This document shows positions 15,784 to 42,033 of a stretch of DNA of 64,000 bases, piece after piece (the first letter of the stretch is position 1; every line of letters begins with the position of its first letter). The position numbers were made by a program, and so were the translations under genes. The notes below the pieces were generated by a model. It had not been told where the DNA came from. It searched no databases and saw nothing but the letters and a program-made list of their open reading frames with translations. The DNA is from an uncultured delta proteobacterium (GTDB taxonomy: Bacteria; Desulfobacterota; Binatia; JACPRU01), in the NCBI GenBank assembly GCA_963745025.1, contig CAVUWD010000016.1, positions 64,001-128,000 of the forward strand. The letters run 5' to 3'.

Positions 15784-15912
15784 GCGCCCGGTCATGCGGC
15801 GGGGCTGGTCACGGCGGTTTGCACGAACCCAATAGACGCGCGCGGGGCCGACCCATCTCGAGAGCGTGGAAGAGCGCTTCGATCCGAATCTGCCGCGACT
15901 CTCGCCAAGACG

Positions 15913-16014: not shown

Positions 16015-16074
16015 AGCGAATGGCTTCCGGTGACCCGATCCGCTACGCCCGCGCCTTCGTTCGGAACCGCGCTT

Positions 16075-16655: not shown

Positions 16656-16790
16656 CGTAAGTCGATCCTACGCCCGGCCTCTTGCCCTGTCCACGGCGCC
16701 GCGACTCTCAGAGCCGTGAGCGGCGTCGTTGCGACTTGGCATCAAGATCGATGTCCGCGACATCTGACAAAAGGATCGATCGGCGAGGAC

Positions 16791-17029
16791 ATGAAACGGT
16801 TACGATCTCACCGAAGTTCCAGGTGGTCATCCCAAAGGAAATCCGCGGCACGCTGAAGCTCACGCCGGGCCAGAAGGTACAGGCGATCCTCTATGGAAAC
16901 CGCATCGAGTTGATTCCCGTCCGGCCGATCAAGAAGATGAGGGGATTCTTGAAGGGAATCGACACCTCCGTGCCTCGTGAGGGAGACCGGGTCTGAACGT
17001 CGTCGACTCGTCGGGCTGGCTGGAGTACC
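16791..17029 (+). pseudogene. Second abrB copy (1-nt loss after ATG) plus 12-codon vapC stub
   Basis: 16629-17029 repeats 15023-15427; ATGAAACGG vs ATGGAAACGG. Confidence 0.85.
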
Positions 17030-17053
17030 GAGCCGGCTACTCGCTCGTTACGC

Positions 17054-18868: not shown

Positions 18869-19577
18869 GATTTGGTCGCCTATCATACAGAAAGAAGTGC
18901 CGCTGATGCGAGCGCGATGACCATCGACGCGCATCGGCGCGAATCACGCCATATTATTGACGAATTGGTTCGGATTTGTGCGGGTCGCCTAAAACGGTGC
19001 GTGGAGAAGGCAACCTGCCTCTGATAGTAGGCGGCGGGCGCTCGCAAGAAAAAGCGCTCAGTTACCCAGGATTTTGACCGAGCGCGGCGTCGTCGGGAGA
19101 TCCGGTATGAAAGTTGCGAAGCGAGAAGGCACGGCTCGCCGAACCCGCTTCGGCGCACGGCGATCTATCCGGGTGAGGAAGACAACGATCCCAAGAGTTG
19201 GGTGGAGGTGTTCGACGGGCTCGAGACGAGGAAGGCGGCGGCGGTAAAGGAAATGGGGACTCGAGCCCGATACGATCGAACGATGGAGGGGCAGGGCTGA
19301 TGGGGTCGGCGAGCCGTTCCGCACTGGGTCCGGCGCTCTTCCACGGGTGCTGGTCGACACGCTTCTTGGCGACGTCACCTACGCCTAGCCTCGATCAGAA
19401 ATCTCTTCTGTGACCTGAACGCGCCGGGCTCGCGCCTGGCTTGTCCGCCACGAGCTTCTTTCTCGAAGCCCTCCATGCCCCAAGAGACGGCATCGTGGTA
19501 GACCTGGCGCTCGTGACGCGCCGGACCGTGGCTCGCGGCTCGCCACAGCCGCTGCGGTTGACCCCGCCGCGGCTTCG

Positions 19578-29257: not shown

Positions 29258-29613
29258 GGGGGCGATCGGGTTCGACGGGGGTTGGAAAGTCAGAGCTGCG
29301 TGCACGAGTCCCGGAGTCGCTCGCTAAAAATGCTCCGGCTGCGAAATTTAAACGCAGACAATAACTTCGCTCTCGCGGCCTAAGGGCTGCGACGTCTCAC
29401 CGGTTCGAGCCCGTAGGGCCGACTGAGGCGACGCAAATCGGGATAAGCTCCGGCGGGCGCTCTCACCGCCGGCGACGAAAAATCAGATGAGCTGGCCTCG
29501 GCGAAGCCTGTCGGCGGGCGACAACGAGGCGAGATCAAATCACCGACTAGGCTACGTAGACGCTCTAGATGGACCGCTCTCGGACGGGGGTTCAATTCCC
29601 CCCGCCTCCATCC
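29258..29613 (+). ncRNA. ssrA: tmRNA; tag reading frame ADNNFALAA* at 29354-29383
   Basis: 5' GGGGGCGATCGGGTTCGACGGGG; 3' GGGGGTTCAATTCCCCCCGCCTCCA; tag ends in ALAA; smpB nearby. Confidence 0.97.
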
Positions 29614-29629
29614 AAAACCTCCCGATTTT

Positions 29630-30012
29630 CCGGGCTGTACGGCTACCAATCGGTGAACGTCGAGGCCCAGCAACGCTCGGGCTCGTCGCTGCTGTCCTGG
29701 ATGAAGCGGCTGATCGCGCTGGTGAAGCGACATCCGGCATTTCGCCGCGGCAGCTTCGAGATCCTCCAGCCGGCCAACCGCAAGATCTTCGCCTTCGTCC
29801 GGCAGTTCCACGACGACGCGCTGCTCGCCGCCAACAACCTGTCGCGCTTCGCGCAGGCGGTGGAGCTCGATCTCTCCCGCTTCCAGGGATGGACGCCCGT
29901 CGAGCTGTTCGGGGATACGCCGTTCCCGAGGATCGGCGAGCCGCCGTATCTGCTGACGCTAGGCCCGCACGGCTTCTTCTGGTTCAAGCTGGTTCCGCCG
30001 CGGGACGTGTGA
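29630..30012 (+). pseudogene. treS: Trehalose synthase TreS C-terminal fragment
   Basis: YGYQSVNVEAQQR...SLLSWMKRLI...NNLSRFAQAVELDL...PYLLTLGPHGFFWF; no start. Confidence 0.85.
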
Positions 30013-30045
30013 CTCTAGGAGACGCGGGCTGGCGACGCGGGATCG

Positions 30046-30837
30046 TTAGCCCGAGCGTGAAGTGCGATACTCGGCGATCGCCTTCAGCATGCCGGCCGTC
30101 TCTCGCGGCGTGCGCAGATAGTAGGCGGCCTCGCTCGTGCGCAGCGGGTTCATCACCGCGACGGTGAGGTGGTCCGGGAACGCGCGGAACACGTCCTCGT
30201 CGGTGAGGTCATCGCCGACGAAAGCCAGACCGCCGGCGCCAAGCGCCTGGAATACCTCGCCGATCGCGCGATGTTTGCATGCGCCGAGCGGCCGAGCCTC
30301 GACGACCATGTGGCCGGAGAGACATTCGAGAGGTGCTCCGTCTTCGCGCTCGCGCTCGACTTCGCGCACGAACGCGGTGATGGCCGTGGCGGCACGCGCA
30401 GGCTCGAGGCCCCGCACGTGCAGAGCGATCGAGTGAACCTTGTCCTCGATGCGGCCGCCCGCACCGATCGCGGCGTCGAGGCGCGGGCGCAGCCGCTCGA
30501 GCGCGCGATCGGAGAGCAGCGGATCGAAGCGCAAACGGTGCGGTTCGTCGGCCATCGCCACCTCGAGCCCGTGAAGGCCGATCCAGACGTGCAGCGGGGG
30601 CAGCAAGCGACGCAAGTCCTCGATCGCGCGGCCGCTCGCCACGCCGATGCGGAGACCCGGGCTGGCCTCGGCGAGCAGCCGGCCGAGCGCAATCGCCGCG
30701 GTCGTCTCGAGGCGTGCCGCATCCGGCGTCGGCGCGAACGGGGCGAGGGTGCCGTCGAAGTCCAGCATGAGAAGCGCATCCGGCAGGCGCGCAAAGCGAT
30801 TGAGGACCTCCGGCGCCTCTTCGAGCAGGTGGCGCAT
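30046..30837 (-). CDS. otsB: Trehalose-6-phosphate phosphatase
   Basis: HAD motifs LDFDGTL, ASGR, GLHGLE, FVGDDLTDED. Confidence 0.9.
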   Translation of the reverse strand: MRHLLEEAPEVLNRFARLPDALLMLDFDGTLAPFAPTPDAARLETTAAIALGRLLAEASPGLRIGVASGRAIEDLRRLLPPLHVWIGLHGLEVAMADEPHRLRFDPLLSDRALERLRPRLDAAIGAGGRIEDKVHSIALHVRGLEPARAATAITAFVREVEREREDGAPLECLSGHMVVEARPLGACKHRAIGEVFQALGAGGLAFVGDDLTDEDVFRAFPDHLTVAVMNPLRTSEAAYYLRTPRETAGMLKAIAEYRTSRSG

Positions 30838-31397
30838 CAGCGACGCGTCGGACGCGCGCGCCGCGCCGTGGGCCCTGCGCGCCTCGTCCGCTTCTTCGCG
30901 GCTCGACCACGGCCGCCGTCCACGGTGGCAGCGGCGGCGAGAAACCATCCGAGCCACCACTGCATGTCTTCGCTCACGACCCGCCGGCGCATCGCGCGCA
31001 TCGCCGTCCGGCGCTCGGTTGGCTTCATCGCCAGGGCGCACTCGATCGCGCGGCACAAACCGTTCACGTCGTAGGGGTTGACGATCAGCGCCTCGCGCAG
31101 CCGCTCGGCGGCGCCGGCGAAGCGCGACAGGATCAGCACGCCGTCCTCGTCCGCGCGCGTCGCGACGAACTCCTGGGCGACGAGGTTCATGCCGTCGCGA
31201 AGCGGCGTCACCAAGAGCGCGTCGGCGGCGCGGTAAAAGACCGCGACCTCGCGCCGGCTGAATCCGTGACAGATGTAGCGCAGCGGCGTCCACTCCACGG
31301 TCGACAGCCGACCCGTGATGCGGCGACGGAACGAGAAGGGTGCGCGGTTGGAGATGATGAGCAACCGCTGGTTGCGTGTCGCCGAGCTCGCCGTCAT
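30837..31397 (-). pseudogene. otsA: Trehalose-6-phosphate synthase with a large in-frame internal deletion
   Basis: RLLIISNRAP joined directly to WTPLRY...[12 protein letters not shown]...LIVNPYD; 186 aa. Confidence 0.85.
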
Positions 31398-31750
31398 GGC
31401 ATTTCGGGAGCCGAGGCCGGCAATGCGAGGTGGCCGACGCGGCACCCGTATTCCGCCGGCGCGCGGCTTCTGCGCCGGATCTCCTGCTGATGCCCGGATT
31501 GTGTCGCTTGCGGACGCCGCGTTCAAGGCATGAAACACGCGATGCTCGCCGAGATCGAAGCCCAAGAACGGAGCCACGAATTGTGAAGCGGTTTGATTAC
31601 GCCTTGGTGCGCAAGCACGGAGAATCTGTTGCTGTTGGCGGGCACGAGCACCGGCAGCGCCGCCGCGAGCAGAAGACCGGCCCACCCACGATGGAGCGCA
31701 AGTCGTCGGTAGTCGCGCCGTGTGGCTTGGGGCATACTGCCGCCAGCGTC

Positions 31751-32515
31751 ATGGCTCGCGCGCCTTCGCTGACTACCCTGAGCGCGACGCTGCGCTCGCT
31801 GCCGAAAGAGGTACGGCTTCTCGCCGCGCTCTTTGCCGCTGCGTTCTGGCTGTGGGCCGTGGTGCTCCTCGTCGCCACCATCGGCTATGCGCGCATTCAG
31901 AAGTTCGACGAGCGCGTCTTGCTGTGGTTCCGCAATCCCACCGACCTCTCGGTGCCGATCGGCCCCGAGTGGCTGCTCGGCGCCGCCAGAGAGATCACCG
32001 CCCTCGGCAGCGCGACGGTGCTGCTGATCCTGATCTTCAGCGTGGCGGGCTATCTGCTGCTCGAGCGCCGCTACGGTCTGGCGTCGCTGGTGCTGGTCTC
32101 GACGTTCGGTGGCATGCTGATCAGCACCCTGCTCAAGGGCTTTTTCGGCCGCCCGCGGCCGACCGTCGTCCCCCACCTCGTACCTGTCAGCTCGCACAGC
32201 TTTCCGAGCGGCCACTCGCTGCTCGCGGCCGTAGTCTATTTGACGCTCGGGGCTTTGCTCGCCCGCGATGCCAACGACCGCGTCACCAAGGTCTACTTGA
32301 TCATGCTCTCGACGACGCTCACCGTGTTGATCGGCTTGTCTCGAATGTACGTCGGCGTCCACTATCCAACCGACGTCCTCGGCGGCTGGGTCGCCGGCAC
32401 GTTCTGGGCGTTGTGCTGCGGCTTGAGCGCCCGCGAGCTGCAGCGCCGGCGCGTCATCGCGCCGATCGAGAAGCCCGACCCTCAACGGGTGACCCGCTCG
32501 AGCTCGGCCACCTGA
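31751..32515 (+). CDS. PAP2-family membrane phosphatase
   Basis: KGFFGRPRP, SFPSGH, SRMYVGVHYPTDV. Confidence 0.92.
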   Translation: MARAPSLTTLSATLRSLPKEVRLLAALFAAAFWLWAVVLLVATIGYARIQKFDERVLLWFRNPTDLSVPIGPEWLLGAAREITALGSATVLLILIFSVAGYLLLERRYGLASLVLVSTFGGMLISTLLKGFFGRPRPTVVPHLVPVSSHSFPSGHSLLAAVVYLTLGALLARDANDRVTKVYLIMLSTTLTVLIGLSRMYVGVHYPTDVLGGWVAGTFWALCCGLSARELQRRRVIAPIEKPDPQRVTRSSSAT

Positions 32516-34140
32516 AGGGTGCCGCCGATCCACGCGAGCACGACCCGGGTGGGCGGGCTCCAGCGGTCTCCCGCGTCGTGGCTGGTCTCGATCTCGACCT
32601 GCGTCTCGGCATCGCTCGCCGCCAGCGGCACGAGGGGCTCGCGCGTCACCGTCCACTCGCGGCCAGGCGTGCGGTAACGGTACTCCACGACCGAAGGGTC
32701 GACGACGCCGCTCGGCACTACGAGGTCCTCGAATCGCAGCGACGATTCGCCGACGACGAGGTGGTCGATCGGATTGATCCGCAGCCAGTCGAAGTACTCG
32801 CGTGCGATGCGCTGGCGGCGCTCGACGAGGATCGCGGTCAGCAGGTCCGCGACCCGCGGATCCGCCCACTCCCCCGTGTGCGCGATGATGCGGACGTCCT
32901 GGTCGGTGAGCGAAGCGACGAGCTTCGCACCCCAGAACTTGTCGCGCAGCGTGGCGCGATCGAAAGCCGGATTGATGTAGGTCGGCTTCCAGCCCTCTGG
33001 ATCGAAGGTCGAGCTCTCGAAGTAGCCGAGCGCCGGATGCGTCAGCGGCAGCCGCGCCCAGTCCGGCGTGAGCTGCCACAGCGTGAGCGCCCGGAGCAGT
33101 ACCTTGGGTAGATCGAAGAAATACTCGTGACCGAGCTTTGGGTCCTTGTAGTCGACGTTTCCGGCGCCGAAGCCGCTCGAGAAGTCGAGCACGTAGTGAA
33201 CGATGTGCCCGCCCGAGCCGGGCTCGGTGGAATCCGCAACGAACGTGTCGAGAAAATTGCCCCGCCGGCCGTCGGTGAAGCTGATGAACGCGGCCACCGT
33301 ACGCAAGCCGCGTAGCTCCCGCCTGTCCTCGTGGCGAACCGTGTCGTTGGGGTCGTCGCGACGCACCCCGATGAGCGGCGGCGATCCCTTGGTCGTGCCC
33401 GGGATGAGTCGACTCGCGAGCACACGCATGCGTCCGTCGGGCAAGCGGTACGCCCGCGCGAGCAAGCGACGCAAGCCATCCTCGGTGAGCGGGGTCTTGC
33501 GCCCCCGCTCGTTCTTCGCGGTCGCATCCGAAGCGATCGTCAGCCGCTTTTCGTCGAGCGAGAATAGATAGTACTCGGGAACGTTCCAGCCGAGCGCCCA
33601 GATGATCTTGGAGCACACCAGCTCGGCGCCGGTCGCGAGGTCGGGGTAGTCCGGCGGATCGAACTTCACGACGTAGCGGTCGCCCTTCGCGTCACGCATC
33701 ACGAAGCCCGGCGTCATGCCGAGCGACTTGCCCGACAGCACCACGAGCGGCCCGGTTGCAGACGGCGGGTGCCCGGTGTTCGGCCCCTGCGCGAGCGCTT
33801 GCGCGCTCAGACGCCGGCGCGCGTGACGGTTGGTGAACCACGTGGAGTCCGGAACCTCGTCGAGGGCGTTGGTATTGGCGGCTTCTCTCGGGCCCACCAC
33901 GCGCGCGATCTCGCCGACAGTACGTACCAAGTGGCCGAGATCGAGCACCTTGCCGAGCGGGTAGAGCGCCATGTTGTGCACGCCGTCCCACCAGACGTAG
34001 TCGCCCTCGTGGTCCTCGGCGGGCTCGGCAATCGGTAGGTCGTCGTTATCCTTCCAGAGAACGGGCTCGCGGATCGGCACCGCGGCTGCCGAAGCTACGA
34101 GGATGAAAACGACGAGCGCCGATGTGGGGAGCCGCTTCAC
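32482..34140 (-). CDS. Exported hypothetical protein with an atypical (HipA/PI3K-like) kinase fold
   Basis: Signal peptide MKRLPTSALVVFILVASAAA; GKSLGMTPGF, YVVKFD, GAE...ALGWNVP, DGRRGN, VLDFSSGFG. Confidence 0.65.
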   Translation of the reverse strand: MKRLPTSALVVFILVASAAAVPIREPVLWKDNDDLPIAEPAEDHEGDYVWWDGVHNMALYPLGKVLDLGHLVRTVGEIARVVGPREAANTNALDEVPDSTWFTNRHARRRLSAQALAQGPNTGHPPSATGPLVVLSGKSLGMTPGFVMRDAKGDRYVVKFDPPDYPDLATGAELVCSKIIWALGWNVPEYYLFSLDEKRLTIASDATAKNERGRKTPLTEDGLRRLLARAYRLPDGRMRVLASRLIPGTTKGSPPLIGVRRDDPNDTVRHEDRRELRGLRTVAAFISFTDGRRGNFLDTFVADSTEPGSGGHIVHYVLDFSSGFGAGNVDYKDPKLGHEYFFDLPKVLLRALTLWQLTPDWARLPLTHPALGYFESSTFDPEGWKPTYINPAFDRATLRDKFWGAKLVASLTDQDVRIIAHTGEWADPRVADLLTAILVERRQRIAREYFDWLRINPIDHLVVGESSLRFEDLVVPSGVVDPSVVEYRYRTPGREWTVTREPLVPLAASDAETQVEIETSHDAGDRWSPPTRVVLAWIGGTLQVAELERVTR

Positions 34141-34454
34141 GGCTCGGAACGCTCCCGGCGGACAGGCCAAAGGACGACGTCGGCGATGCGTTCATCCAGC
34201 CGGGCCGCTTCGGCCCAGATGAGCGCTTGCTTGAGCGGCCAGGCTGCAAGCAGCACGATCTGGTTGGGAAGCGCCAGCGCCGCGCGCCACAGCGGCCACT
34301 CCTCGCGGACGAGGCGGCGCTCGCGCACCTCGTTGGGCGGAAGCGGCGGAGCGGCCTGCGCCGCGGAAGCGAGCGCGCCGATCACGAGCAGCATACCGAG
34401 CCCCACCTGCGCGGTAGCGAATCGGCGACGCGTGCGTTCTAGAGCTCTAGCCAC
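34137..34454 (-). CDS. Small exported/membrane hypothetical protein
   Basis: 105 aa, signal peptide ending AQA, amphipathic helices; GTGA overlap with the kinase gene. Confidence 0.6.
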   Translation of the reverse strand: MARALERTRRRFATAQVGLGMLLVIGALASAAQAAPPLPPNEVRERRLVREEWPLWRAALALPNQIVLLAAWPLKQALIWAEAARLDERIADVVLWPVRRERSEP

Positions 34455-34459
34455 GGCGA

Positions 34460-35887
34460 TCAGAAGGTGTGACCGAAGACCACGTAGACGAGGCCCTTCT
34501 CTTCGTCGCTGAACCCGACGTCGATCCGCGCTACCAGCGCCTCGCCGAGAGCGATGCGCGTGCCGCCGCCGTAGCTGTAGCGAAACTCGTTGTCGGTGCG
34601 CGGAATTGTGGCCGGTGGCTCGCCGAGCTCGCGCGCGATGTCCTCTTCGTCCATGAAGACCCGCCCAGCGTCACCGAATGCGACACCGTCGATCTGCACC
34701 TGCCAGATGCCGAAGAAGTTGAAGTCGAAGAGCTTCAGACGGTACTCGCCGTTGATCATCACGTTGCTGGTGCCAAGGAAGCGATCCTGGAAGAATCCGC
34801 GCAGGTCGCGCGAGCCGCCGAGTGAGGCGAGCTCGTAGAATGGCACCTGGCGCGCCTTGGCATCGATGTACTGCCCGCCGATGTGCAGTCCGATCACCTG
34901 ACGGCGCGTGAACAGCGGATAGAGATAGCTTCCCTCGAGGTTGTAGCGCGCGTACTCGAAGTCGTTCCCCAATCCGCGCGGGACCCACGTCGCCTTGGCG
35001 ATGATGCTCCAGCCGCGCGTCGGCCGTGCCAGCTCTTGACGGTCGTTGAAGAGCACGGCGAATGCCAGTGGACTCGACCGCCCGCCGGCGATGCCGGCCA
35101 TATCCGGAAACAGCGCCGGTGTGGAGGGAGTGGAGTCCTCGAGGTGGCCGTGACTGATTTGCACTTCGTTGTACGCGCCCGACGCGACCAAGGTGAAGCG
35201 GCGAGACAAGCGAAGAGCGAGCGCGAGGGTTCCGGTGATGCGTTGGTAGCGATTGGTCGACAGCTCGTCCGGCCCGACGTCGTTGTTGCCGAGACCGAAG
35301 AACTCCTTGGTCGGATCGGTGTAGTACTCGCCTTCAGCGAGCAGCATCAGCCAGTCAGTGCCGAGCGACGGCGAGATCAGGACTGTGTCGAGATGGTACT
35401 GACCCTTTAGGGCGGCGCTTGCGGCGAAGTCGAGCGTCAAGTGAAGCGACGTCATGTCGCGGTTCGTGAACTTGACGCCACCATTCGGGCCCTTTTCCGG
35501 GCTGTAGCCGACCTCGGGAAGAACCGCCCAGTGCCGCGCTGTCGCCGTCTCGCCTCCAGGTTTGGGCGGGGGCTGGGTCTGTTGACCGCCGCCTGCCGGC
35601 TCGCTCGGCGTCTCACCTCCAGGTTGGGGGGGCGGCTGTTTCTCGTCCCCGCGGCCCGCCGGCTCGCTTGTCCCCTCACCTCCTTGCGGTTTCTCTGCTG
35701 TCGCTTCCGCTTCCTTTGCACGCTCCGACTGGATGACCTCGAGGATGCTTCGCTCGCTCGCGATCGGATCCTGCTCGGCCCAGACCGTCATCGCACCGGG
35801 CGCGACCAGCCACGACACGGACAATGCGGCAAAACCGGCTACTGGTGACCGACCCACGCCTCCTCTCCCGTAGCTACGAATTCTCAC
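34460..35887 (-). CDS. Omp85/BamA-TamA family outer-membrane beta-barrel without obvious POTRA domains
   Basis: LGGSRDLRGF loop-6 motif, GEYR, AFGDAGRV, terminal VFGHTF; N-terminal Pro/Gly 21-aa repeat. Confidence 0.85.
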   Translation of the reverse strand: MRIRSYGRGGVGRSPVAGFAALSVSWLVAPGAMTVWAEQDPIASERSILEVIQSERAKEAEATAEKPQGGEGTSEPAGRGDEKQPPPQPGGETPSEPAGGGQQTQPPPKPGGETATARHWAVLPEVGYSPEKGPNGGVKFTNRDMTSLHLTLDFAASAALKGQYHLDTVLISPSLGTDWLMLLAEGEYYTDPTKEFFGLGNNDVGPDELSTNRYQRITGTLALALRLSRRFTLVASGAYNEVQISHGHLEDSTPSTPALFPDMAGIAGGRSSPLAFAVLFNDRQELARPTRGWSIIAKATWVPRGLGNDFEYARYNLEGSYLYPLFTRRQVIGLHIGGQYIDAKARQVPFYELASLGGSRDLRGFFQDRFLGTSNVMINGEYRLKLFDFNFFGIWQVQIDGVAFGDAGRVFMDEEDIARELGEPPATIPRTDNEFRYSYGGGTRIALGEALVARIDVGFSDEEKGLVYVVFGHTF

Positions 35888-36049
35888 TACGCACCTCCGT
35901 CACCCTCACATCCGAGCTCTGTCGACGAAGACGATTCGCCCGGCGCGTGTTCACCGATTGGAAGTCCTATAGTAACAACCGTAGGCACGCCTAGGTTTCG
36001 CTGATCTCTGGGCGAGCAACTCGAACGAGGCTTTGGGGGTTGAGAGCTG

Positions 36050-37501
36050 ATGGCTAGGCAATCTCAGTGGCCACCTGCGGCTTCCACCCGTAGGCTGGAG
36101 GAGCTGCTCTACTCTCCCGCCGATCGGCTGTTGGCGATCTTCAGCGACATCCAGCCGGGTGAGGGCATCGTCGGCTTCGCGATGCTCGGGGCCGTGTTCC
36201 TGCTGCTCACCTCCGTGTATTTCCTGAAACCCGCGCGTGATGGTTTGTTGGCCATCTCGGGTGTGCCGGGCCTGTCCGACATGGAGCTCAAGGCGTACTC
36301 GAGCTTCGGACAGAGCCTTCTCCTGCTCGGTATCGTCCCGCTCTACTCACGCTTCGCAACGGCGCTCGATCGGCGCTCGCTCGCGCGCGGCCTCACGCTG
36401 TTCTTCGTGTCTAACCTCATAGTGTTCTGGCTCCTCCAGCCCGGTTTGGTCGTCGACCACGCGCCGTTTCTCGGCATCGTCTTCTATCTCTGGTTCGGCG
36501 TCTTCAACCTACTCGCCCTCGTGCAGTTCTGGTCGTTCGCAGCCGACTTCTACAGCGAGGAGGGGGGACGGCGGCTATTTCCGGCGATCGCCGTCGGTGC
36601 GACCGCCGGCTCGGCGGCCGGAGCCTGGCTCGCCAAGATGTTGGTCCGCTCGGGCATCTTCTCGACGTACGCGCTGCTTCTCGCCGCCGCCCTGGCGCTG
36701 ATCGGCTCGCTGGCGCTGCTGATGTTCGCCGAGTCGCGCGGCGGGGTGACGAGCGAAACGCCTGCCGCTGCGGCTTTAGAAGCAGTCGAGAGACGTGGCG
36801 CATTTCGCCTGGTGCTGTCGCACCGTTACCTGCTCGCCACGGCCGTCGTCATCCTGATTGCCAACTGGGTGAAGACCAACAGCGACAACCTGCTGTTCGC
36901 GATCGTGCAGGAAGTCGTCGGCCAGGAAGCTAGCGCCCGCGGCCTGTCTGGCTCGGCCGCGCTCGACCGCTTCACGGCCGACCAGACCACGACCTTCTAC
37001 GGTGACCTGTTCTTCTGGGTGAACGTGGCGGCGCTGTTGGTGCAGTCGCTGTTCGCGTCGAGGATCCTGAAGTATGGCGGCTTCGGGGCGCTATTCCTCG
37101 TCCTGCCGACGATCTCGATGATCGCCTACCCACTGCTCGTCGTGGCGCCGGTTCTGGCGCTTTTCCGCATCACCAAGGTCATCGAGGACGCGACCAACTA
37201 CTCGTTGCACAACACCGCCACCCAGGTGCTGTGGCTGCCGACCACGCGGGAGATGAAATACAAGGGCAAGGCCGCAATCGACACCTTCTTCGTACGCCTC
37301 GGCGACGCGCTCGCCGCGCTCACGACGTTCGTTGGCATCCAGCTGCTAACGGTGCCCGCGAAGGAGTTCTTTACGCTGAACACGGTGCTGGCGTTTGCCT
37401 GGCTCGCGGCGGCGCTCGTCGTCGTGCGCGAGCACGACGTGCTCGTCGCCGCCTCGGGGGCGAGCGAGAGGAGCGCCGCAACTTCGGGTGCAATCGCGTG
37501 A
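36050..37501 (+). CDS. Npt/TLC-family nucleotide (ATP/ADP) translocase homologue 1
   Basis: FLKPARD, QFWSFAAD...RLFPAI, NYSLHNT...LWLP...KYKGKAAIDTFFVRLGD; about 12 TM. Confidence 0.85.
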   Translation: MARQSQWPPAASTRRLEELLYSPADRLLAIFSDIQPGEGIVGFAMLGAVFLLLTSVYFLKPARDGLLAISGVPGLSDMELKAYSSFGQSLLLLGIVPLYSRFATALDRRSLARGLTLFFVSNLIVFWLLQPGLVVDHAPFLGIVFYLWFGVFNLLALVQFWSFAADFYSEEGGRRLFPAIAVGATAGSAAGAWLAKMLVRSGIFSTYALLLAAALALIGSLALLMFAESRGGVTSETPAAAALEAVERRGAFRLVLSHRYLLATAVVILIANWVKTNSDNLLFAIVQEVVGQEASARGLSGSAALDRFTADQTTTFYGDLFFWVNVAALLVQSLFASRILKYGGFGALFLVLPTISMIAYPLLVVAPVLALFRITKVIEDATNYSLHNTATQVLWLPTTREMKYKGKAAIDTFFVRLGDALAALTTFVGIQLLTVPAKEFFTLNTVLAFAWLAAALVVVREHDVLVAASGASERSAATSGAIA

Positions 37502-37533
37502 TTACACCAAGGACCCGCAGACAGAATCGGCCG

Positions 37534-37549
37534 GGGCTCGCTCTTTGCT
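37534..37549 (+). promoter_or_regulatory. Candidate sigma54 promoter
   Basis: GGGCTCG-CTCT-TTGCT with GG-N10-GC spacing, between the two translocase genes. Confidence 0.4.
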
Positions 37550-37570
37550 CCGAGACATGGACGGCTCGAC

Positions 37571-38986
37571 GTGAGTTCTCATGGGGCTAAGCAGACGCGG
37601 ACAAGAAGTCGCTTGTCCGTGCTCGAGCGCACGCTGAGTGTCTTCACCGAGATCCATCCTGGTGAAGGACCGACCGGCATATACATGCTGATCGGCGTGT
37701 TTTTTGTCCTGGCCGCCTATTACTTCGTCAAGCCGGCGCGCGACGGCCTGCTCGCCATCTCACCGGCCGGCGGGCTGTCCGATACCGAGCTCAAGGCCTA
37801 CTCGAGCTTGGCGCAGAGCGTATGTCTGATCGGCGCGCTGCCGCTCTACGATCGGATCTCGAAGCGGCTGCCGCGGCGCTCTCTCCTGACCGTCGTCACG
37901 CTGTTCTTTGCGGCGAATCTGCTGGTGTTCTGGGCGCTGCAGCCCGGGCTCGTGTTCACCAACGTCACCTACGCGGGGCTCGTCTTCTATCTCTGGGTCG
38001 GCATCTTCAACGTCTTCATCGTCGCTCAGTTCTGGTCCTTCGCCGCCGATCTCTACAGCGAGGAAAGCGGCAAGCGGCTGTTTCCGCTGATCGCCATCGG
38101 TGCCACCGCGGGGGCGGCGAGCGGCGCGTGGATGGCGAAGCGCCTGGTCGGGTCCGTGGGCACCTACGGGTTGCTGCTGGTGGCGGCAGCCGTGCTGGCG
38201 CTCTCGCTGATCGCCATTCGCATGGCGGACTCGCTCGGTGCCGAAGGCCCCCGACCGAGCGAACCAGAAGCTGCGCCCGCACAGCCGCGTGACCCCTCGG
38301 GGGGGCTCCGCCTGGTCTTCCGCCACAAGTACCTCATCGCCACCGCCTTCCTCGTGCTCGTGCTCAACTGGGTGAACACCAACGGCGAGAATTTCCTGTT
38401 CGGCGCGGTCGAGAAGCACATCCACGCCGAGGCCGTGGCGCGCGGCATTCCACAGGGCGAACCGACCGAAACCTTCATTCGTGACCAGACGACTCGCTTC
38501 TACGGCGACATGTTCTTCTGGGTGAACGTGACAGCGCTGTTCCTGCAGACGCTGGTGGCCTCGCGGCTGATCCGCTACGGCGGCTTCGGCGCCATCCTGC
38601 TGGCATTGCCAGCGATCTCGCTCACCGCCTACGTCGTCATGGCGCTGCATCCGACGCTCGGCACGATCCGGCGCATGAAGATCGCCGAGAATGTCACCGA
38701 CTACTCGATCAACAATACGGCCAAGCAAGTGCTCTGGCTGCCGACGACCTTGGACATGAAGTACCGCGCCAAGGCGACCATCGACACGCTGTTCGTCCGG
38801 GCAGGAGACGCGCTGGCCGCTGTCACCGCCTTCGTCGGCGTGAAGCTGCTCGAAGCGCCGCCGCGTGCGCTCTTCGGCTTCAACGCTGTGCTGGTTCTCG
38901 CCTGGCTCGCGCTCGCCGTGGTCATCGTCGCTGAGCACGAGCGTCTGTCGAGCCGTCCGCGCTCGTGCCGCAAGGCTGCCGCGTGA
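37571..38986 (+). CDS. Npt/TLC-family nucleotide (ATP/ADP) translocase homologue 2
   Basis: YYFVKPARD, QFWSFAADLY...KRLFPLI, DYSINNT...KYRAKATIDT. Confidence 0.85.
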   Translation: MSSHGAKQTRTRSRLSVLERTLSVFTEIHPGEGPTGIYMLIGVFFVLAAYYFVKPARDGLLAISPAGGLSDTELKAYSSLAQSVCLIGALPLYDRISKRLPRRSLLTVVTLFFAANLLVFWALQPGLVFTNVTYAGLVFYLWVGIFNVFIVAQFWSFAADLYSEESGKRLFPLIAIGATAGAASGAWMAKRLVGSVGTYGLLLVAAAVLALSLIAIRMADSLGAEGPRPSEPEAAPAQPRDPSGGLRLVFRHKYLIATAFLVLVLNWVNTNGENFLFGAVEKHIHAEAVARGIPQGEPTETFIRDQTTRFYGDMFFWVNVTALFLQTLVASRLIRYGGFGAILLALPAISLTAYVVMALHPTLGTIRRMKIAENVTDYSINNTAKQVLWLPTTLDMKYRAKATIDTLFVRAGDALAAVTAFVGVKLLEAPPRALFGFNAVLVLAWLALAVVIVAEHERLSSRPRSCRKAAA

Positions 38987-40089
38987 CCCGCGTGCGCCTG
39001 CGAGGCCTCACGCTCGTGTCGGTCGTGTTGCTCGCGCTCGTCACGAGGCTCGGCCACGCCGCCGGCTGGGTATCGGACGCGTGGATCACCGTGAAGACCA
39101 AGATCGGGCTCGTCACCACAGAGGAGCTGGCAAGCTCGGAGATCTCCGTCGACACGGTCGACGGACGGGTCACGCTCTGCGGCAAGGTGCCCGGGTCAAC
39201 GCAAAAGCAGAAGGCGGAGGAGGTCGCCAAACTGGTCTCAGGTGTACGCGACGTGCGCAACCTCCTGCAGATCGTGCCGCCCGAGCACGCCGAAGTCGCG
39301 AAGGAGACCGACACCAAGATCCAGCACGACGCCCAGGAAGCGCTCGCCAAAGACCTGGAGCTCGCCGGGTCGGGCATTCGGGTCGCTTCGGTGGCGGCGG
39401 GCGTGCTCGTGCTCGGCGGCACCGCGCGCAGCTCCGTAGAGCTTCTGCGCGCGCTCGACGCCGTCCGGCACGTCCGCGGCGTGCACCGCGTCCAGAGCGC
39501 GGTCGAGATCGCCGCTGGCGATCCGGAGGTCGACATCTGGAGCGGCCACGAGCTTCGCCAGGACGGGCGCGGCGCGCTCGACGCCGCTTCCGATCTCTGG
39601 TTGACGGCCAACACGCGCCTGCGGCTGCTCGCCGACCCCAAGCTTCGCGGCCTCGACATCAGCGTCGACAGCGGGGGTCAAACGGTCACGCTTTTCGGCA
39701 TCGTTCCCTCCACCGCAGCGAAGCGTGCGGCCGAGCAGGACGCGCGGCAAGTGTCCGGCGTGCGCGCGGTGCGTAACGAGCTGCAGGTTGTGCCGGCCTC
39801 GAAGCAGCAGATCGTACGCGCGCGTGACAACGACCTCGAGCAGAAGGTGACGGCGGCGATCTATCGGCGCCCGGAACTGAAGCACGCGGCGATCGGTGTG
39901 GCGGTGCGCAACGGGGTCGTGCGGCTGTCGGGTACGGCGCCGAGCCAACAGCATCGCCTGTTCGCGGCGACCGCGGCGCATGCGGTACCGGGCGTGCGAG
40001 CCGTCGAAGAGAACATCAAGGTGACGACCGTAATTCAGGGAAAGGCCTCTTCGGCCTCGGCGGCACATCCGGCGCCGCCCGAGCACTAG
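38983..40089 (+). CDS. OsmY-like multi-BON domain protein
   Basis: SDAWITVKTK...VDTVDGRVTL...VSGVRDVRNLL repeated about 4 times; signal peptide; GTGA overlap. Confidence 0.9.
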   Translation: MTRVRLRGLTLVSVVLLALVTRLGHAAGWVSDAWITVKTKIGLVTTEELASSEISVDTVDGRVTLCGKVPGSTQKQKAEEVAKLVSGVRDVRNLLQIVPPEHAEVAKETDTKIQHDAQEALAKDLELAGSGIRVASVAAGVLVLGGTARSSVELLRALDAVRHVRGVHRVQSAVEIAAGDPEVDIWSGHELRQDGRGALDAASDLWLTANTRLRLLADPKLRGLDISVDSGGQTVTLFGIVPSTAAKRAAEQDARQVSGVRAVRNELQVVPASKQQIVRARDNDLEQKVTAAIYRRPELKHAAIGVAVRNGVVRLSGTAPSQQHRLFAATAAHAVPGVRAVEENIKVTTVIQGKASSASAAHPAPPEH

Positions 40090-41106: not shown

Positions 41107-41930
41107 TCAAACCGTCGCAAAGACCCGATAGATCGCCGCCTCATAGGGCTGGAGCTCGAGCGATCGGGTGATGCCACCCGCTTTCCCTCGCCCGCCGAAC
41201 TCCGTCGCCGCCGTCGAAAGCAGCAGGCTCCACCCTCCCTGAGGAACGGGGGTGACGTCGGGGGCGGTCTTGTCCCTTGATACGTTGAACAGCGTGAGCA
41301 ACTCGCGGCCGGGCCGACCGTAGTGTCGAACCGCGATCCAGCCTTCGGGCGAATGCTCTGCCGAGGGCGAGTACTCGACTTGGACTTCCGCGGAATCGGG
41401 GTGAAGCGCCGGCTCCGCACGACGGAGCCCGAGAAGGCTCCGGTAGAGGTGCAGCATCTCCCGATGCGGCGAGCGATCGCCAGTCGATACGCGATCGCAG
41501 AAAAGTCTCACGGCGAGACCGGTCTCGTGTGCGGCATCGACGAGCCGTTTGAGGCCAAGCGGTCCGCCGTAGTTGCTGTGCGGCGCGTACGGATGGACGC
41601 CGTCGTAGCCCCAGTTCCGCCGACCCGGAAACTCGGCGACGGGCATAATCTCGATCGCGCTCACGCCGAGGTCTCGGAGCGCGGGCAGATGCTTGACGAC
41701 GCCGTCGAAGCTGCCAGAGATCGTGAAGGTGCCGACGTGGAGCTCGTAGATCACCAGATCGGACATCGCGATGCCGGGCCAGCGCTGGTCGGACCAGGCG
41801 AAGTCACCCGGCGCCACGATGCGTGACGGGTTATGCACGCCGTACGGCTGAAAGCGGCTTACGGGGTCTGGCCGATTGCGCGAGCCATCGAGGCGGTAAG
41901 AGTAGTGTCTCCGACCCGCTCGCGGAGTGA
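41107..41930 (-). pseudogene. treZ: Malto-oligosyltrehalose trehalohydrolase, 5'-truncated and internally deleted
   Basis: PDPVSRFQP, IYELHVGTF, RNWGYDGV, then a jump to the C-terminal YRSLLGLRR; catalytic core absent. Confidence 0.85.
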
Positions 41931-42033
41931 AACCGCAGTGCAGAAAAGCTACGACGAGACTTCTCGCACGTACGTTGAAACGAGGTGAACCAAATCGGGT
42001 TTCGCTGTCTCGAGGCTCACGCTGTAAGAACGA

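What the first reader, a model, noticed from the sequence alone, without database searches (positions are those of the whole stretch)
31751..40089. Candidate extracytoplasmic phosphorylation system: exported kinase, Omp85, paired ATP/ADP translocases, PAP2 phosphatase and BON protein
Seen: a tightly linked minus-strand operon (Omp85 barrel, 105-aa exported protein, 552-aa signal-peptide protein) is divergent from two Npt/TLC homologues followed by a 4-BON protein, and a PAP2 gene converges on its end. The 552-aa protein carries motifs in kinase order: Gly-loop GKSLGMTPGF, beta3 Lys YVVKFD, helix-C Glu GAE, catalytic DGRRGN and DFG-like LDFSSGFG. Established: HipA, PI3/4K, CotH and Fam20 kinases share this arrangement; Npt/TLC proteins exchange ATP for ADP in Chlamydia, Rickettsia and plastids; the periplasm is ATP-poor; PAP2 active sites face the periplasm. 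Inference: here the translocases export ATP and recover ADP to fuel a periplasmic or surface kinase, anchored or exported by the Omp85 and possibly reversed by PAP2, as part of envelope remodelling under stress. I know of no characterised system of this kind.
Basis: partly seen in the sequence, partly recalled or inferred. Interest (0 to 1): 0.88.

Follow-up and report, generated by a model that had tools for sequence, protein, structure and literature searches.

The report
Exported kinase, Omp85 barrel, ATP/ADP transporters
Many double-membraned bacteria encode an uncharacterised kinase that is sent outside the cytoplasm, paired with an outer-membrane barrel and often with ATP/ADP-type transporters, which hints that ATP-driven phosphorylation may occur in a compartment usually thought to lack ATP.

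Summary

The family is large (4023 representative clusters) and found in diderm phyla.
- A POTRA-less Omp85 gene sits directly upstream in 74 of 80 loci.
- TLC/NTT transporter genes lie within 10 kb in 45 of 80 loci, often adjacent.
- Exported PAP2 or metallophosphatase genes lie within 3 kb in 13 of 42 loci.
- BON and the 105-aa protein are lineage-local.

Against a strict dependence on the transporters:
- 5 of 29 kinase-bearing Acidobacteriota genomes show no TLC.
- Only 9 of 80 TLC-centred loci hold the kinase.

Some TLC loci without the kinase instead hold a signal-peptide protein with an ATP-grasp domain.

Best reading (confidence 0.4): the TLCs deliver ATP to the periplasm for this kinase. 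Transport, kinase activity and substrate are untested. I found no description of it in print.

The parts
31751..32515 (+). PAP2-family integral membrane phosphatase. It converges on the kinase gene and overlaps its end by 34 nt. The start is uncertain (31691 or 31751).
   Evidence: Pfam PF01569 E 7.3e-25, 87.7 bits against a cut-off of 27.2. NCBIfam matches (SepP, PgpB, undecaprenyl-diphosphatase) are all far below their cut-offs. PAP2 genes lie within 3 kb of the Omp85-kinase pair in 8 of 42 well-flanked loci.
32482..34140 (-). Exported atypical kinase-fold protein, 552 aa, called KIN in this report. It has a signal peptide (about residues 1-24), a helical N-terminal region, a kinase domain (about residues 98-457) and an FN3-like beta-sandwich (about residues 451-540).
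32770..33849 (-). Kinase domain of KIN (residues 98-457). Conserved residues are K159 (VVKFD), E173, D290/N295 (TDGRRGN) and D319 (LDFS, which reads DFG in many relatives).
   Evidence: Conservation in 232 relatives: K159 in 224, D290 in 228, N295 in 227, D319 in 226, E173 as E in 184 and D in 36. Profile alignment puts these residues opposite the IIKLP, TDGHAKN and YDII segments of E. coli HipA.
32521..32790 (-). C-terminal FN3/Ig-like beta-sandwich of KIN (residues 451-540).
34137..34454 (-). 105-aa ORF with an N-terminal hydrophobic segment, called S105 in this report. It lies between Omp85 and KIN and overlaps the KIN start by 4 nt.
   Evidence: No Pfam or NCBIfam family. Found by phmmer only in the window's own family (L002, L004, L005) and in 0 of 80 loci from other species. 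A similar segment is fused to the N-terminus of KIN homologues P0050, P0055 and P0057.
34460..35887 (-). POTRA-less Omp85 barrel. The N-terminal ~116 residues are disordered and Pro/Gly/Glu-rich, and the beta-barrel runs from about residue 120 to 471.
   Evidence: PF01103 E 1.6e-17. 36 of 36 KIN-adjacent homologues hit Omp85 only, with no POTRA at E<=0.001. AlphaFold2 model pLDDT 76.0, with segments below pLDDT 50 at residues 1-45, 70-81 and 90-116. Foldseek best hits: TamA 4c00 at E 1e-14 and the TamA barrel 4n74 at TMt 0.76, then BamA barrels.
35888..36049 (.). Divergent intergenic spacer between the Omp85-S105-KIN operon and the TLC1-TLC2-BON operon.
   Evidence: Sequence read, ORF map. No promoter analysis was done.
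36050..37501 (+). TLC/NTT-family transporter 1, 483 aa.
   Evidence: PF03219 at 28.6 bits against a cut-off of 21, matching only residues 370-447. 54% identical to TLC2. A profile of this subfamily matches solved ADP,ATP carrier protein 1 (9j3n_A) at E 1.7e-30 over profile positions 12-463.
37571..38986 (+). TLC/NTT-family transporter 2, 471 aa.
   Evidence: PF03219 at 24.4 bits against a cut-off of 21. MFS_1 at 27.3 bits is below its cut-off. Close homologues are named 'ATP:ADP antiporter, AAA family' or 'NTP/NDP exchange transporter' by JGI and NCBI.
38965..40089 (+). Signal-peptide protein with four BON domains (OsmY-like). It overlaps the end of TLC2 by 22 nt.
   Evidence: PF04972 E 4.9e-55, 4 stretches. 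NCBIfam OsmY scores 110.7 bits, below its cut-off of 174. BON genes lie beside KIN in L078 and L082 (2 of 42 well-flanked loci), in L057, and in the same-family genome G004 (L002).

Best explanation
The window carries one copy of a widespread, uncharacterised envelope module.

What the data show:
- The core is a Sec-exported enzyme, a lipoprotein in many lineages, with an atypical protein-kinase fold of the CtkA/HipA/Fam20/CotH/PI4KII class.
- The ATP-binding Lys, the catalytic Asp..Asn and the metal-binding DFG-like Asp are all intact.
- It is encoded directly behind a barrel-only (POTRA-less) Omp85 protein.

What I infer:
- The two TLC/NTT exchangers in the divergent operon swap cytoplasmic ATP for periplasmic ADP and so supply the kinase.
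- The kinase phosphorylates an envelope substrate that is still unknown (protein, lipid or glycan) at or near the outer membrane.
- The Omp85 barrel holds the kinase there or exposes it.
- Exported phosphatases, PAP2 here and metallophosphatases elsewhere, remove the phosphate.
- The BON protein and the 105-aa protein are lineage-specific accessories.
For: Fold:
- AlphaFold2 model pLDDT 89.7, pTM 0.90.
- Foldseek's best hits are CtkA, Fam20C, HipT and PI4KIIalpha.
- hhalign against a HipA alignment scores 33.6. Forty column shuffles gave mean 15.9, sd 2.4, max 23.0.
- HipA_C is hit weakly by 14 of 31 members, best E 2.8e-6.

Active site: kept in 224-228 of 232 relatives.

Export: 212 of 228 full-length relatives have an N-terminal signal-type hydrophobic region and 66 have a lipobox-like Cys.

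Omp85 partner:
- It is present in 74 of 80 loci by unbiased clustering, upstream on the same strand.
- The pair is duplicated as a unit in L031 and L056.

TLC link:
- TLC genes occur in 45 of 80 loci and in 25 of 37 loci with full flanks.
- 23 loci have a TLC gene less than 300 bp from KIN or Omp85.
- 8 of 8 KIN genomes with no TLC in the flank have one elsewhere.
- In 151 Acidobacteriota genomes, TLC is in 24 of 29 with KIN and 33 of 122 without. The odds ratio is 12.9. Related genomes are not independent, so the Fisher P of 4.5e-8 overstates.
- These TLCs are full-length homologues of solved ATP/ADP carriers, E 1.7e-30.

Independent hint that these transporters serve exported ATP-users: in 6 of 27 KIN-less TLC loci of 9 kb or more, a ~970-aa protein with a PPDK_N ATP-grasp domain lies within 2.5 kb of the TLC gene. 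In four of them (L125, L127, L129, L130) it sits upstream of a peptidoglycan-binding-domain gene and then the TLC gene. I checked five of these proteins for a signal peptide. Four have one (L125, L129, L130, L142). The fifth, L141, showed none in its stop-to-stop frame. L127 was not checked.

Exported phosphatases: PAP2 or Metallophos genes lie within 3 kb of the pair in 13 of 42 loci. All 7 Metallophos neighbours have signal-peptide or lipobox N-termini.
Against: - No biochemical datum exists for any part.
- 5 of 29 KIN-bearing Acidobacteriota genomes (G138, G154, G194, G232, G251; two matches lie on Mb-scale contigs) showed no TLC with PF03219 or with a profile of KIN-linked TLCs. They keep the Omp85-KIN pair. 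So TLC is not obligatory.
- Starting from TLC, only 9 of 80 loci hold KIN, or 6 of 33 loci of 9 kb or more. TLC also occurs in 33 of 122 genomes without KIN. TLC therefore has wider roles.
- All characterised NTTs import nucleotides into parasites or organelles (Major et al. 2017, PMC5381601, parts 1-2 read).
- ATP released into a periplasm bounded by porins would leak.
- The sequence evidence for kinase kinship is weak on its own. HipA_C scores 13.8 bits against a cut-off of 30.5 for the window protein. Foldseek E-values are all above 0.001.
- The TLC Pfam scores of the window's own proteins are only just above the cut-off and cover about 80 residues.
Confidence: 0.4

Rival explanations
1. 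The Omp85-KIN pair is a self-contained secretion or surface-display system. The barrel exports or exposes the kinase, which acts on the cell surface or on other cells, using ATP it meets there. The TLC genes nearby serve another purpose and are linked only by shared regulation.
For: - The best structural match, CtkA, is a kinase of Helicobacter pylori; that it is secreted is my recollection, not a call result.
- An Omp85 gene directly upstream of an exported partner recalls two-partner secretion.
- The pair is far more constant (74 of 80 loci) than the TLC link (45 of 80).
- 5 of 29 KIN genomes lack any detectable TLC yet keep the pair.
- The C-terminal FN3-like domain would suit binding to a surface.
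Against: - No POTRA domain in 36 of 36 partner barrels, and no TPS domain or any other Pfam family in KIN. The defining parts of two-partner secretion are therefore missing.
- About 66 of 228 relatives look like lipoproteins.
- The close, often operonic placement of TLC genes goes unexplained: 23 loci have one within 300 bp, and the genome-level odds ratio is 12.9.
Confidence: 0.2
2. The module scavenges external nucleotides or organic phosphate. Exported phosphoesterases and the kinase-fold protein process nucleotides outside the cytoplasm, the Omp85-type barrel lets them through the outer membrane, and the TLC proteins import them, as characterised NTTs do.
For: - All characterised NTTs are importers (PMC5381601, parts 1-2 read).
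- Neighbours within 3 kb include exported Metallophos (7 of 42 loci), a 5'-nucleotidase (L010), a nucleotide pyrophosphatase/phosphodiesterase (L039), PAP2 (8 of 42) and PPK2 (L014, L078).
- Exported Metallophos genes also sit beside TLC genes without KIN (L173, L176, L188).
Against: - A binding or relay role does not need the nearly invariant catalytic Asp, Asn and metal-binding Asp.
- A kinase outside the cytoplasm still needs a phosphoryl donor.
- Omp85 barrels are not known as solute channels (my knowledge, not tested).
- An exported ATP-grasp protein next to TLC is hard to fit to scavenging.
Confidence: 0.2
3. KIN uses the kinase fold for other chemistry. It could phosphorylate a lipid or sugar (as PI4K, MavQ and Fam20B do) or carry out AMPylation or a similar transfer, or it could take its phosphoryl group from a donor other than ATP. 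The TLC proteins may then carry a different nucleotide or cofactor.
For: - One characterised NTT outside the main clade carries NAD (PMC5381601, part 2 read).
- A family-specific, nearly invariant charged block, RxDDPNDxxxHxxRRxxRG at residues 260-278, has no counterpart that I could name.
- Some KIN genomes lack TLC.
Against: Nothing here tells protein from lipid or sugar substrates, or phosphoryl transfer from adenylyl transfer. The canonical Lys/Glu/Asp/Asn/Asp set is what ordinary phosphotransfer needs.
Confidence: 0.12
4. The neighbourhood is a chance or lineage-specific arrangement of unrelated envelope genes.
For: - BON and the 105-aa ORF are confined to a few lineages.
- The block sits about 2 kb downstream of a tmRNA gene and among truncated trehalose genes, which suggests local rearrangement.
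Against: - Omp85 is present in 74 of 80 loci and TLC in 45 of 80, from many phyla.
- TLC genes pile up at under 100 bp from the pair: 19 of 59.
- In the same-family genome G004, two TLC matches lie just upstream of BON, S105 and KIN, all on one strand.
Confidence: 0.03

Closest known systems
HipA/HipT toxin kinases and H. pylori CtkA (HipA-like Ser/Thr kinases, PI3/4-kinase-like fold)
   Different: KIN is not a toxin-antitoxin gene. It has no HipB-type neighbour, no HipA N-terminal domains were detected, and Pfam HipA_C stays below its cut-off (13.8 against 30.5 bits). KIN also has a signal peptide or lipobox, an FN3-like tail, a family-specific N-terminal region (motif PDSTWFTNR) and an Omp85 partner.
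Fam20C/Fam20 (Golgi casein kinase) and CotH (spore-coat kinase)
   Different: No Pfam Fam20C or CotH match. Fam20C works in the eukaryotic secretory pathway. CotH acts during spore-coat assembly; I recall this from the literature and did not test it. Neither has an Omp85 partner or a TLC neighbour.
NTT/TLC nucleotide transporters (PF03219; Rickettsia Tlc1, Chlamydia Npt1, plastid NTT1) and the NTT-HEAT fusions of free-living bacteria
   Same: Both window proteins pass the Pfam cut-off. Their subfamily profile matches solved ADP,ATP carriers over the full length, E 1.7e-30 and 5.9e-25. Long TLC-HEAT forms sit beside KIN in 17 loci together with short forms. Major et al. 2017 (PMC5381601) report NTT and NTT-HEAT genes in free-living bacteria, with unknown function.
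   Different: The characterised members import host nucleotides. Here the organism is free-living (sediment, soil and similar metagenomes) and the proposed direction is outward. In the parts I read and term-searched, that paper has no occurrence of 'kinase', 'outer membrane' or 'export'. Its supplements were not seen.
Omp85 superfamily: BamA/TamA and TpsB of two-partner secretion
   Same: A 16-strand-type barrel, closest to the TamA and BamA barrels (E 1e-14, TMt 0.76 to the TamA barrel alone). Like TpsB, it is encoded next to an exported partner.
   Different: No POTRA domain in 36 of 36 partner barrels or in the model, and the N-terminus is disordered and low in complexity. The partner has no TPS domain.
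LpxT and other PAP2 enzymes (periplasmic phosphorylation and dephosphorylation of lipid A)
   Same: This is the only bacterial 'periplasmic phosphorylation' that my paper search returned (PMC2229476, search listing and start of abstract only). It shows that envelope lipids are phosphorylated outside the cytoplasm. It belongs to the same Pfam family as the window's PAP2 gene; that LpxT is a PAP2 enzyme is recalled.
   Different: LpxT takes phosphate from undecaprenyl pyrophosphate, not ATP (recalled). The window's PAP2 matches NCBIfam models only far below their cut-offs, so its substrate is unknown.
AXER/SLC35B1, the ATP/ADP exchanger of the endoplasmic reticulum
   Same: A functional analogue: an exchanger that feeds ATP into a compartment with no ATP synthesis of its own (PMC6113206, search listing and start of abstract only).
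   Different: An unrelated protein family in a eukaryotic organelle. No homology is claimed.

Membership tests
Protein-kinase-like superfamily, HipA/CtkA/PI3-4K-like branch | Two-lobed kinase fold | tested here: met
Protein-kinase-like superfamily, HipA/CtkA/PI3-4K-like branch | ATP-binding Lys, helix-C acidic residue, catalytic Asp-x4-Asn and metal-binding Asp (DFG-like), in that order | tested here: met
   K159 in 224 of 232, E173 as E in 184 plus D in 36, D290 in 228, N295 in 227, D319 in 226. They are aligned to the matching HipA segments by hhalign with a score well above shuffles. Their positions in the 3-D model were not inspected.
HipA toxin family (Pfam HipA_C PF07804 / HipA_2 PF20613) | Pfam gathering score | tested here: not met
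   The window protein scores 13.8 bits on HipA_C (cut-off 30.5) and 14.2 bits on HipA_2 (cut-off 27). 14 and 13 of 31 relatives match at E<=1, best 2.8e-6.
HipA toxin family (Pfam HipA_C PF07804 / HipA_2 PF20613) | HipB-type antitoxin neighbour and cytoplasmic location | tested here: not met
   The neighbours are Omp85, S105 and PAP2. Signal peptides are present in 212 of 228 relatives.
Fam20 / CotH secreted kinases | Sequence membership (Pfam Fam20C PF06702, CotH) | tested here: inconclusive
TLC/NTT nucleotide transporters (PF03219, TC 2.A.12) | Pfam gathering score and full-length homology to characterised carriers | tested here: met
   28.6 and 24.4 bits against a cut-off of 21. Subfamily profile against 9j3n_A gives E 1.7e-30 over positions 12-463. 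15 of 16 KIN-linked TLC ORFs from other loci pass PF03219. NCBIfam TIGR00769 gives only 20.5 bits against a cut-off of 387.
TLC/NTT nucleotide transporters (PF03219, TC 2.A.12) | ATP/ADP (or other nucleotide) counter-exchange activity | not testable with these tools
   This needs uptake and efflux assays. The published substrate-binding residues could not be mapped because no paper on 9j3n was in the library.
Omp85 superfamily (PF01103) | Omp85 barrel | tested here: met
   64.5 bits against a cut-off of 24. Model barrel spans residues 120-471. TamA and BamA barrels at E 1e-14 to 1e-11.
BamA/TamA/TpsB (POTRA-bearing Omp85 proteins); two-partner secretion | One or more POTRA domains in the barrel protein; TPS domain in the cargo | tested here: not met
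   0 of 36 KIN-adjacent barrels hit POTRA at E<=0.001. The model's N-terminal ~116 residues are mostly of low confidence, with segments below pLDDT 50 at 1-45, 70-81 and 90-116, and a single helix at 41-64. KIN has no Pfam domain.
PAP2 phosphatases (PF01569) | Pfam gathering score | tested here: met
   87.7 bits against a cut-off of 27.2. No NCBIfam equivalog cut-off is reached, so the substrate is unassigned.
BON-domain proteins (PF04972; OsmY-like) | BON repeats plus a signal peptide | tested here: met
   Four BON stretches, E 4.9e-55. An N-terminal hydrophobic segment is visible in the translation. The OsmY equivalog cut-off is not reached: 110.7 against 174.

The most novel reading that the evidence does not exclude
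Diderm bacteria of many phyla keep an ATP-fuelled biochemistry outside the cytoplasm. Their NTT/TLC exchangers, whose role in free-living bacteria is unexplained, would run outward. They would supply periplasmic ATP to dedicated exported enzymes. One such family is the Omp85-partnered kinase described here. A second, unrelated one is the signal-peptide ATP-grasp protein found beside other TLC genes. Exported phosphatases would make the kinase's envelope modification reversible. The periplasm would then not be ATP-free in these organisms.
Probability: 0.3. Interest if true: 0.95.

Novelty: categorically new. Interest (0 to 1): 0.85.

Why it matters
Textbooks treat the periplasm as lacking ATP, and envelope machines are explained by how they cope without it. 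An exported kinase with an intact active site, conserved across many phyla and often encoded beside ATP/ADP-carrier homologues, makes that assumption directly testable.

It would also give a function to two orphan groups:
- the NTT and NTT-HEAT transporters of free-living bacteria, whose functions Major et al. 2017 left open;
- the POTRA-less Omp85 barrels.

Even if ATP export proves wrong, the kinase-Omp85 pair is a large family with no Pfam model, no name and no paper found. It counts 4023 representative clusters and at least 592 matching stretches among species-representative genomes. One cultured carrier was seen among the 80 loci (Salinibacter altiplanensis, L081), so experiments are feasible.

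Tried and rejected
Sequence searches that gave nothing useful:
- KIN against PDB sequences, as a single sequence and as a profile, found nothing significant.
- hhalign of the family alignment against E. coli HipA alone gave only a 24-column match at E 0.13. A HipA alignment was needed.
- The ESM Atlas gave only unnamed clusters at high score. Named clusters scored 0.79-0.81 and are leads only.
- A search for longer, fused forms of KIN found one 967-aa protein with no Pfam domain.
- Among long representatives, P0246 carries an N-terminal GT4 glycosyltransferase, which may be a gene-calling fusion. No Omp85-KIN or TLC-KIN fusion was found.
- TLC2 alone against PDB gave E 0.96. The profile was needed.

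Structure and complex prediction:
- Complex prediction with Omp85 residues 105-475 and KIN residues 25-552 returned 'no support', score 0.01. This is not evidence either way.

Other tools:
- The sequencing-run search listed no RNA holder. Read laying was not run, so nothing can be said about expression.

Paper searches. None found a description of this family or module:
- Omp85/HipA-like/kinase/periplasm.
- Periplasmic, extracytoplasmic, secreted or outer-membrane kinase.
- Periplasmic ATP, ATP export, nucleotide transport protein.
- CotH/Fam20/HipA/CtkA/signal peptide/Omp85.
- NTT1/cryo-EM.
- PDB codes 9J3N, 9J3J, 9J3O.
- One search failed on term syntax.

Ideas considered and dropped:
- KIN as a HipA-type toxin. 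There is no antitoxin and the protein is exported.
- The long open frames around KIN in TLC-less genomes as Omp85-KIN fusions. Omp85 lies in a different frame.
- The module as a recent genomic island. GC content is unremarkable at 0.64-0.69 and the module is shared by relatives.

Full report
OBSERVATION

The ORF map shows two operons that diverge from a 162-nt spacer.
- On the minus strand: Omp85 (34460-35887), a 105-aa ORF called S105 here (34137-34454), and a 552-aa ORF called KIN here (32482-34140). S105 overlaps the KIN start by 4 nt.
- On the plus strand: TLC1 (36050-37501), TLC2 (37571-38986) and a BON protein (38965-40089). The BON gene overlaps the end of TLC2 by 22 nt.
- A PAP2 gene converges on KIN and overlaps its end by 34 nt. 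It lies in ORF 31376-32515 and probably starts at 31751.

Pfam confirms these assignments:
- PAP2 at 87.7 bits.
- Omp85 at 64.5 bits.
- Four BON domains, E 4.9e-55.
- TLC/PF03219 at 28.6 and 24.4 bits against a cut-off of 21. For TLC1 the match covers only about 80 C-terminal residues.
- KIN and S105 have no family.

NCBIfam gave no match above any curated cut-off. The nearest homologues of KIN are 'hypothetical proteins'. Where a source names an organism, several are from Candidatus Binatia. GC content across the region is unremarkable.

WHAT KIN IS

Sequence evidence
- Single-sequence and profile searches of PDB sequences found nothing.
- Pfam HipA_C and HipA_2 were hit weakly by 14 and 13 of 31 family members. 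The best E was 2.8e-6, and all hits for the window protein are below the cut-off.
- I built a HipA alignment from E. coli HipA and 12 HipA_C-bearing ORFs from related genomes. The locus from an unpublished genome was left out.
- hhalign of the KIN family against this alignment scored 33.6, E 0.003.
- Forty column-shuffled versions of the HipA alignment gave mean 15.9, sd 2.4 and maximum 23.0. The reversed version gave 17.6.
- The alignment sets VVKFD opposite IIKLP, TDGRRGN opposite TDGHAKN, and LDFS opposite YDII of HipA. From memory these are HipA's ATP-binding Lys, catalytic loop and metal-binding Asp.

Structure evidence
- An AlphaFold2 model built on 31 sequences has mean pLDDT 89.7 and pTM 0.90.
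- Foldseek against the PDB put CtkA, Fam20C/Fam20A, HipT, PI4KIIalpha, Rio2 and HipA on top. E-values were 2.5e-3 and above, with probability up to 1.00.
- VIA-align against 48,161 representative chains gave kinases in all 14 best rows:

Active site and export
- In 232 aligned relatives, K159 is kept in 224, D290 in 228, N295 in 227 and D319 in 226. D319 is followed by Phe in 192, then Gly in 112 or Ser in 88. E173 is Glu or Asp in 220. These are active-site-competent enzymes, not decayed pseudokinases.
- 212 of 228 full-length relatives have an N-terminal signal-type hydrophobic stretch by a crude rule. 66 have a lipobox-like Cys. Most of the exceptions look like truncated gene calls or carry an S105-like extension.
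- No tool for signal-peptide prediction was available, so export is inferred from these features.

HOW WIDESPREAD, AND WITH WHAT

Size of the family
- A profile search of 1.84 billion representatives found 4023 clusters at E<=0.001 and 1412 at E<=1e-30.
The best 80 came from Nitrospirota, Latescibacterota, Acidobacteriota, Gemmatimonadota, Calditrichota, Zixibacteria, KSB1, Ignavibacteria, Balneolaceae, Salinibacter and others. All of these are diderm lineages.

Omp85
- Unbiased clustering of all ORFs of 90 aa or more in these 80 loci gave an Omp85 cluster in 74 of 80 loci. Its median position is 1.5 kb upstream, always on the KIN strand.
- The single-sequence phmmer count was lower: 55 of 73 loci with enough upstream DNA had an adjacent Omp85, and 65 of 80 had one anywhere. 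Pfam later showed that phmmer had missed Omp85 genes in L060 and L074.
- The Omp85-KIN pair is duplicated in tandem in L031 and L056.
- None of 36 partner barrels has a POTRA domain.
- The window's barrel models as an N-terminus of about 116 residues that is mostly low in confidence, followed by a barrel closest to TamA and BamA.

TLC
- The TLC cluster is present in 45 of 80 loci. phmmer found it in 43 of 80, and in 25 of 37 loci with 9 kb or more on both sides.
- TLC genes are concentrated next to the pair. Of 59 TLC ORFs in 40 loci, 19 lie under 100 bp away, and 23 loci have one under 300 bp away.
- 15 of 73 loci have a TLC gene directly downstream of KIN on the same strand.
- Two forms occur: a short form of about 450 aa and a long TLC-HEAT fusion of about 930 aa. 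Both are present in 17 loci.

Other neighbours
I ran a Pfam census of 226 ORFs within 3 kb of the pair in 42 well-flanked loci, combined with the phmmer results.
- PAP2 in 8 loci: L008-L012, L048, L081, L083. It is also in the short locus L063.
- Metallophos in 7 loci: L010, L018, L019, L048, L052, L056, L075. All seven have signal-peptide or lipobox N-termini.
- One or the other is present in 13 of 42 loci.
- A nucleotide pyrophosphatase/phosphodiesterase in L039.
- PPK2 in L014 and L078.
- BON in L078 and L082.
- S105 was found in none of the 80 loci. It does occur in the window's own family. S105-like segments are also fused to the N-terminus of KIN in P0050, P0055 and P0057.

THE TLC LINK TESTED FROM BOTH SIDES

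The TLC1/TLC2 subfamily
- Its profile matches the solved ADP,ATP carriers 9j3n_A (E 1.7e-30, positions 12-463 of 467) and plastid NTT1 9j3j_A (E 5.9e-25).
- Its homologues are named ATP:ADP antiporters by JGI and NCBI.

Starting from KIN
- 8 of 8 KIN genomes with no TLC gene in the flank have one elsewhere.
- In a sample of 151 Acidobacteriota genomes, KIN was in 29 and TLC in 57. Both were in 24, KIN alone in 5, TLC alone in 33 and neither in 89. The odds ratio is 12.9. Related genomes are not independent, so the Fisher P overstates.
- One genome with both genes, G158, is unpublished. Without it the count is 23 of 28.
- The five genomes with KIN alone were also negative with my TLC profile. 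They keep the Omp85-KIN pair.
- Among the window's own relatives, TLC was in 12 of 61 genomes and KIN in 4 of 61.

Starting from TLC
- Of 80 metagenome loci found with the TLC profile, 9 hold KIN. Of the 33 that are 9 kb or longer, 6 do.
- So KIN usually comes with TLC, but TLC mostly comes without KIN.

A second exported ATP-binding neighbour
- I looked at what lies beside TLC in the 27 long loci without KIN.
- In L125, L127, L129 and L130 a ~970-aa protein sits upstream of TLC. Its last ~330 residues are a PPDK_N domain, the nucleotide-binding ATP-grasp of PEP synthase (PDB 2ols_A, E 4e-13). A protein with a peptidoglycan-binding domain lies between it and TLC.
- A PPDK_N protein also lies near TLC in L141 and L142.
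- I checked five of these proteins for a signal peptide. Four have a clear N-terminal signal peptide (L125, L129, L130, L142), with no other hydrophobic segment in the first three. L141 showed none in its stop-to-stop frame, and L127 was not checked.
- This is a second, unrelated family of exported proteins with an ATP-binding fold beside these transporters.
- Exported Metallophos genes recur there too (L173, L176, L188).

INTERPRETATION

Shown:
- A kinase fold with an intact catalytic set.
- Signal peptides across the family.
- A near-constant POTRA-less Omp85 partner.
- Frequent, close TLC neighbours.
- Recurrent exported phosphatases.

Inferred:
- That the TLCs deliver ATP to the periplasm.
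- That KIN phosphorylates an envelope substrate.
- That Omp85 positions KIN.
- That the phosphatases reverse it.

An antiporter facing high cytoplasmic ATP and periplasmic ADP would run in the proposed direction without further energy. That rests on established NTT exchange behaviour and was not tested here.

The weak points are the 5 of 29 genomes without TLC, the wider distribution of TLC, leakage of ATP through porins, and the complete lack of biochemistry. I put the full mechanism at 0.4. The rivals are:
- a self-contained secretion or surface-kinase system (0.2);
- nucleotide or phosphate scavenging with TLC as importer (0.2);
- other chemistry on the same fold (0.12);
- chance (0.03).

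KNOWN WORK

- Major et al. 2017 (PMC5381601) describe NTT and NTT-HEAT genes in free-living bacteria and leave their functions open. I read parts 1 and 2 of 4 and ran a term search. I did not see the supplements. 'Kinase', 'outer membrane' and 'export' do not occur in the main text.
- Six further searches found nothing on this family or module.
- The only bacterial 'periplasmic phosphorylation' returned was LpxT (PMC2229476, listing only).
- AXER (PMC6113206, listing only) is a eukaryotic analogue.
- The library lacks most subscription journals, so 'not in print' means not found in these searches.

VERDICT

- The kinase, export and linkage parts of the interpretation are supported.
- The ATP-export mechanism remains a well-motivated hypothesis.
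- The module lies outside any characterised bacterial system that I could find.

Noticed in passing
L125, L127, L129, L130 (about 3300-8000 in each locus, upstream of the TLC gene at 8001); also L141:8039-11728 and L142:1882-4902: A ~970-aa protein ends in a PPDK_N (PEP-synthase-type ATP-grasp) domain. In L125, L127, L129 and L130 a signal-peptide protein with a peptidoglycan-binding domain follows it, and then a TLC transporter gene. Of five PPDK_N proteins checked, four have a signal peptide (L125, L129, L130, L142). L141 showed none and L127 was not checked. This is a second kind of exported ATP-binding-fold protein linked to TLC.
   Followed up: partly
window 29258-29610 and flanks 29569-31685, 41107-42258: A tmRNA gene lies about 2 kb upstream of the module. 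The module is bracketed by what look like truncated trehalose genes. These are a 147-aa fragment holding only a maltogenic-amylase C-terminal domain, a Glyco_transf_20 (OtsA-like) ORF matching only profile positions 339-469 of 473, and a 383-aa alpha-amylase-family ORF with partial domains. Full-looking trehalose-phosphatase and TreY-like genes lie nearby. This suggests local rearrangement or insertion.
   Followed up: partly
L005 = G000:C19:376328-379465: The same genome holds a second Omp85 copy (87% identical) and an S105-like ORF. After them comes an ORF whose first ~60 residues resemble the KIN signal peptide and N-terminus. That ORF then continues into a CDP-alcohol phosphatidyltransferase domain. 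It could be a broken duplicate, a recombination product or an assembly join.
   Followed up: partly
L002 = G004:C47:347171-349365, and G004:C47:344741-347284: In a same-family genome, two TLC matches lie just upstream of BON, S105 and KIN on one strand, with no Omp85 gene between BON and S105. The window's two divergent operons are therefore joined into one line there. The contig ends inside KIN.
   Followed up: partly
P0050, P0055, P0057 (homologues of KIN): An S105-like segment (about 40-50 residues, with the pattern ...W..L.AP.LLVDAFHWPL.KFL.WGE...) is fused in front of the mature N-terminus of KIN. In the window S105 is a separate ORF, and its end (DVVLWP) echoes the start of mature KIN (PVLWKDNDD).
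   Followed up: no
L010, L011, L012 (about 11700-19300 in each): In Nitrospirales, KIN is followed by an unassigned ~290-aa ORF, a cyclic-nucleotide-binding protein and a PAS/GAF histidine kinase. A TLC-HEAT gene then lies on the other strand, and PAP2 sits just upstream of Omp85. This recalls the NTT-HEAT plus cNMP-binding pairing noted by Major et al. 2017.
   Followed up: no
L119:5974-9405 and L120:5206-8703: Two Acidobacteriota KIN homologues lie in open frames of 1144 and 1166 aa, in which the KIN match covers only about 400 residues. In L120 the extra sequence is a C-terminal extension of roughly 650 residues. In L119 it lies on both sides of the match. Neither has a Pfam match.
   Followed up: no
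P0246 (955 aa): This representative has an N-terminal GT4 glycosyltransferase (residues about 80-390) in front of a full KIN match at 432-954. It may be a gene-calling artefact.
   Followed up: no
KIN residues 260-278 and 97-105 (window about 33307-33363 and 33826-33852, minus strand): Two family-specific blocks are nearly invariant in 232 relatives and have no counterpart that I could name in other kinases. One is RxDDPNDxxxHxxRRxxRG, with D266, H270, R274 and R277 in 232 of 232. The other is PDSTWFTNR, with R105 in 231 of 232. They are candidate sites for substrate or partner binding.
   Followed up: no
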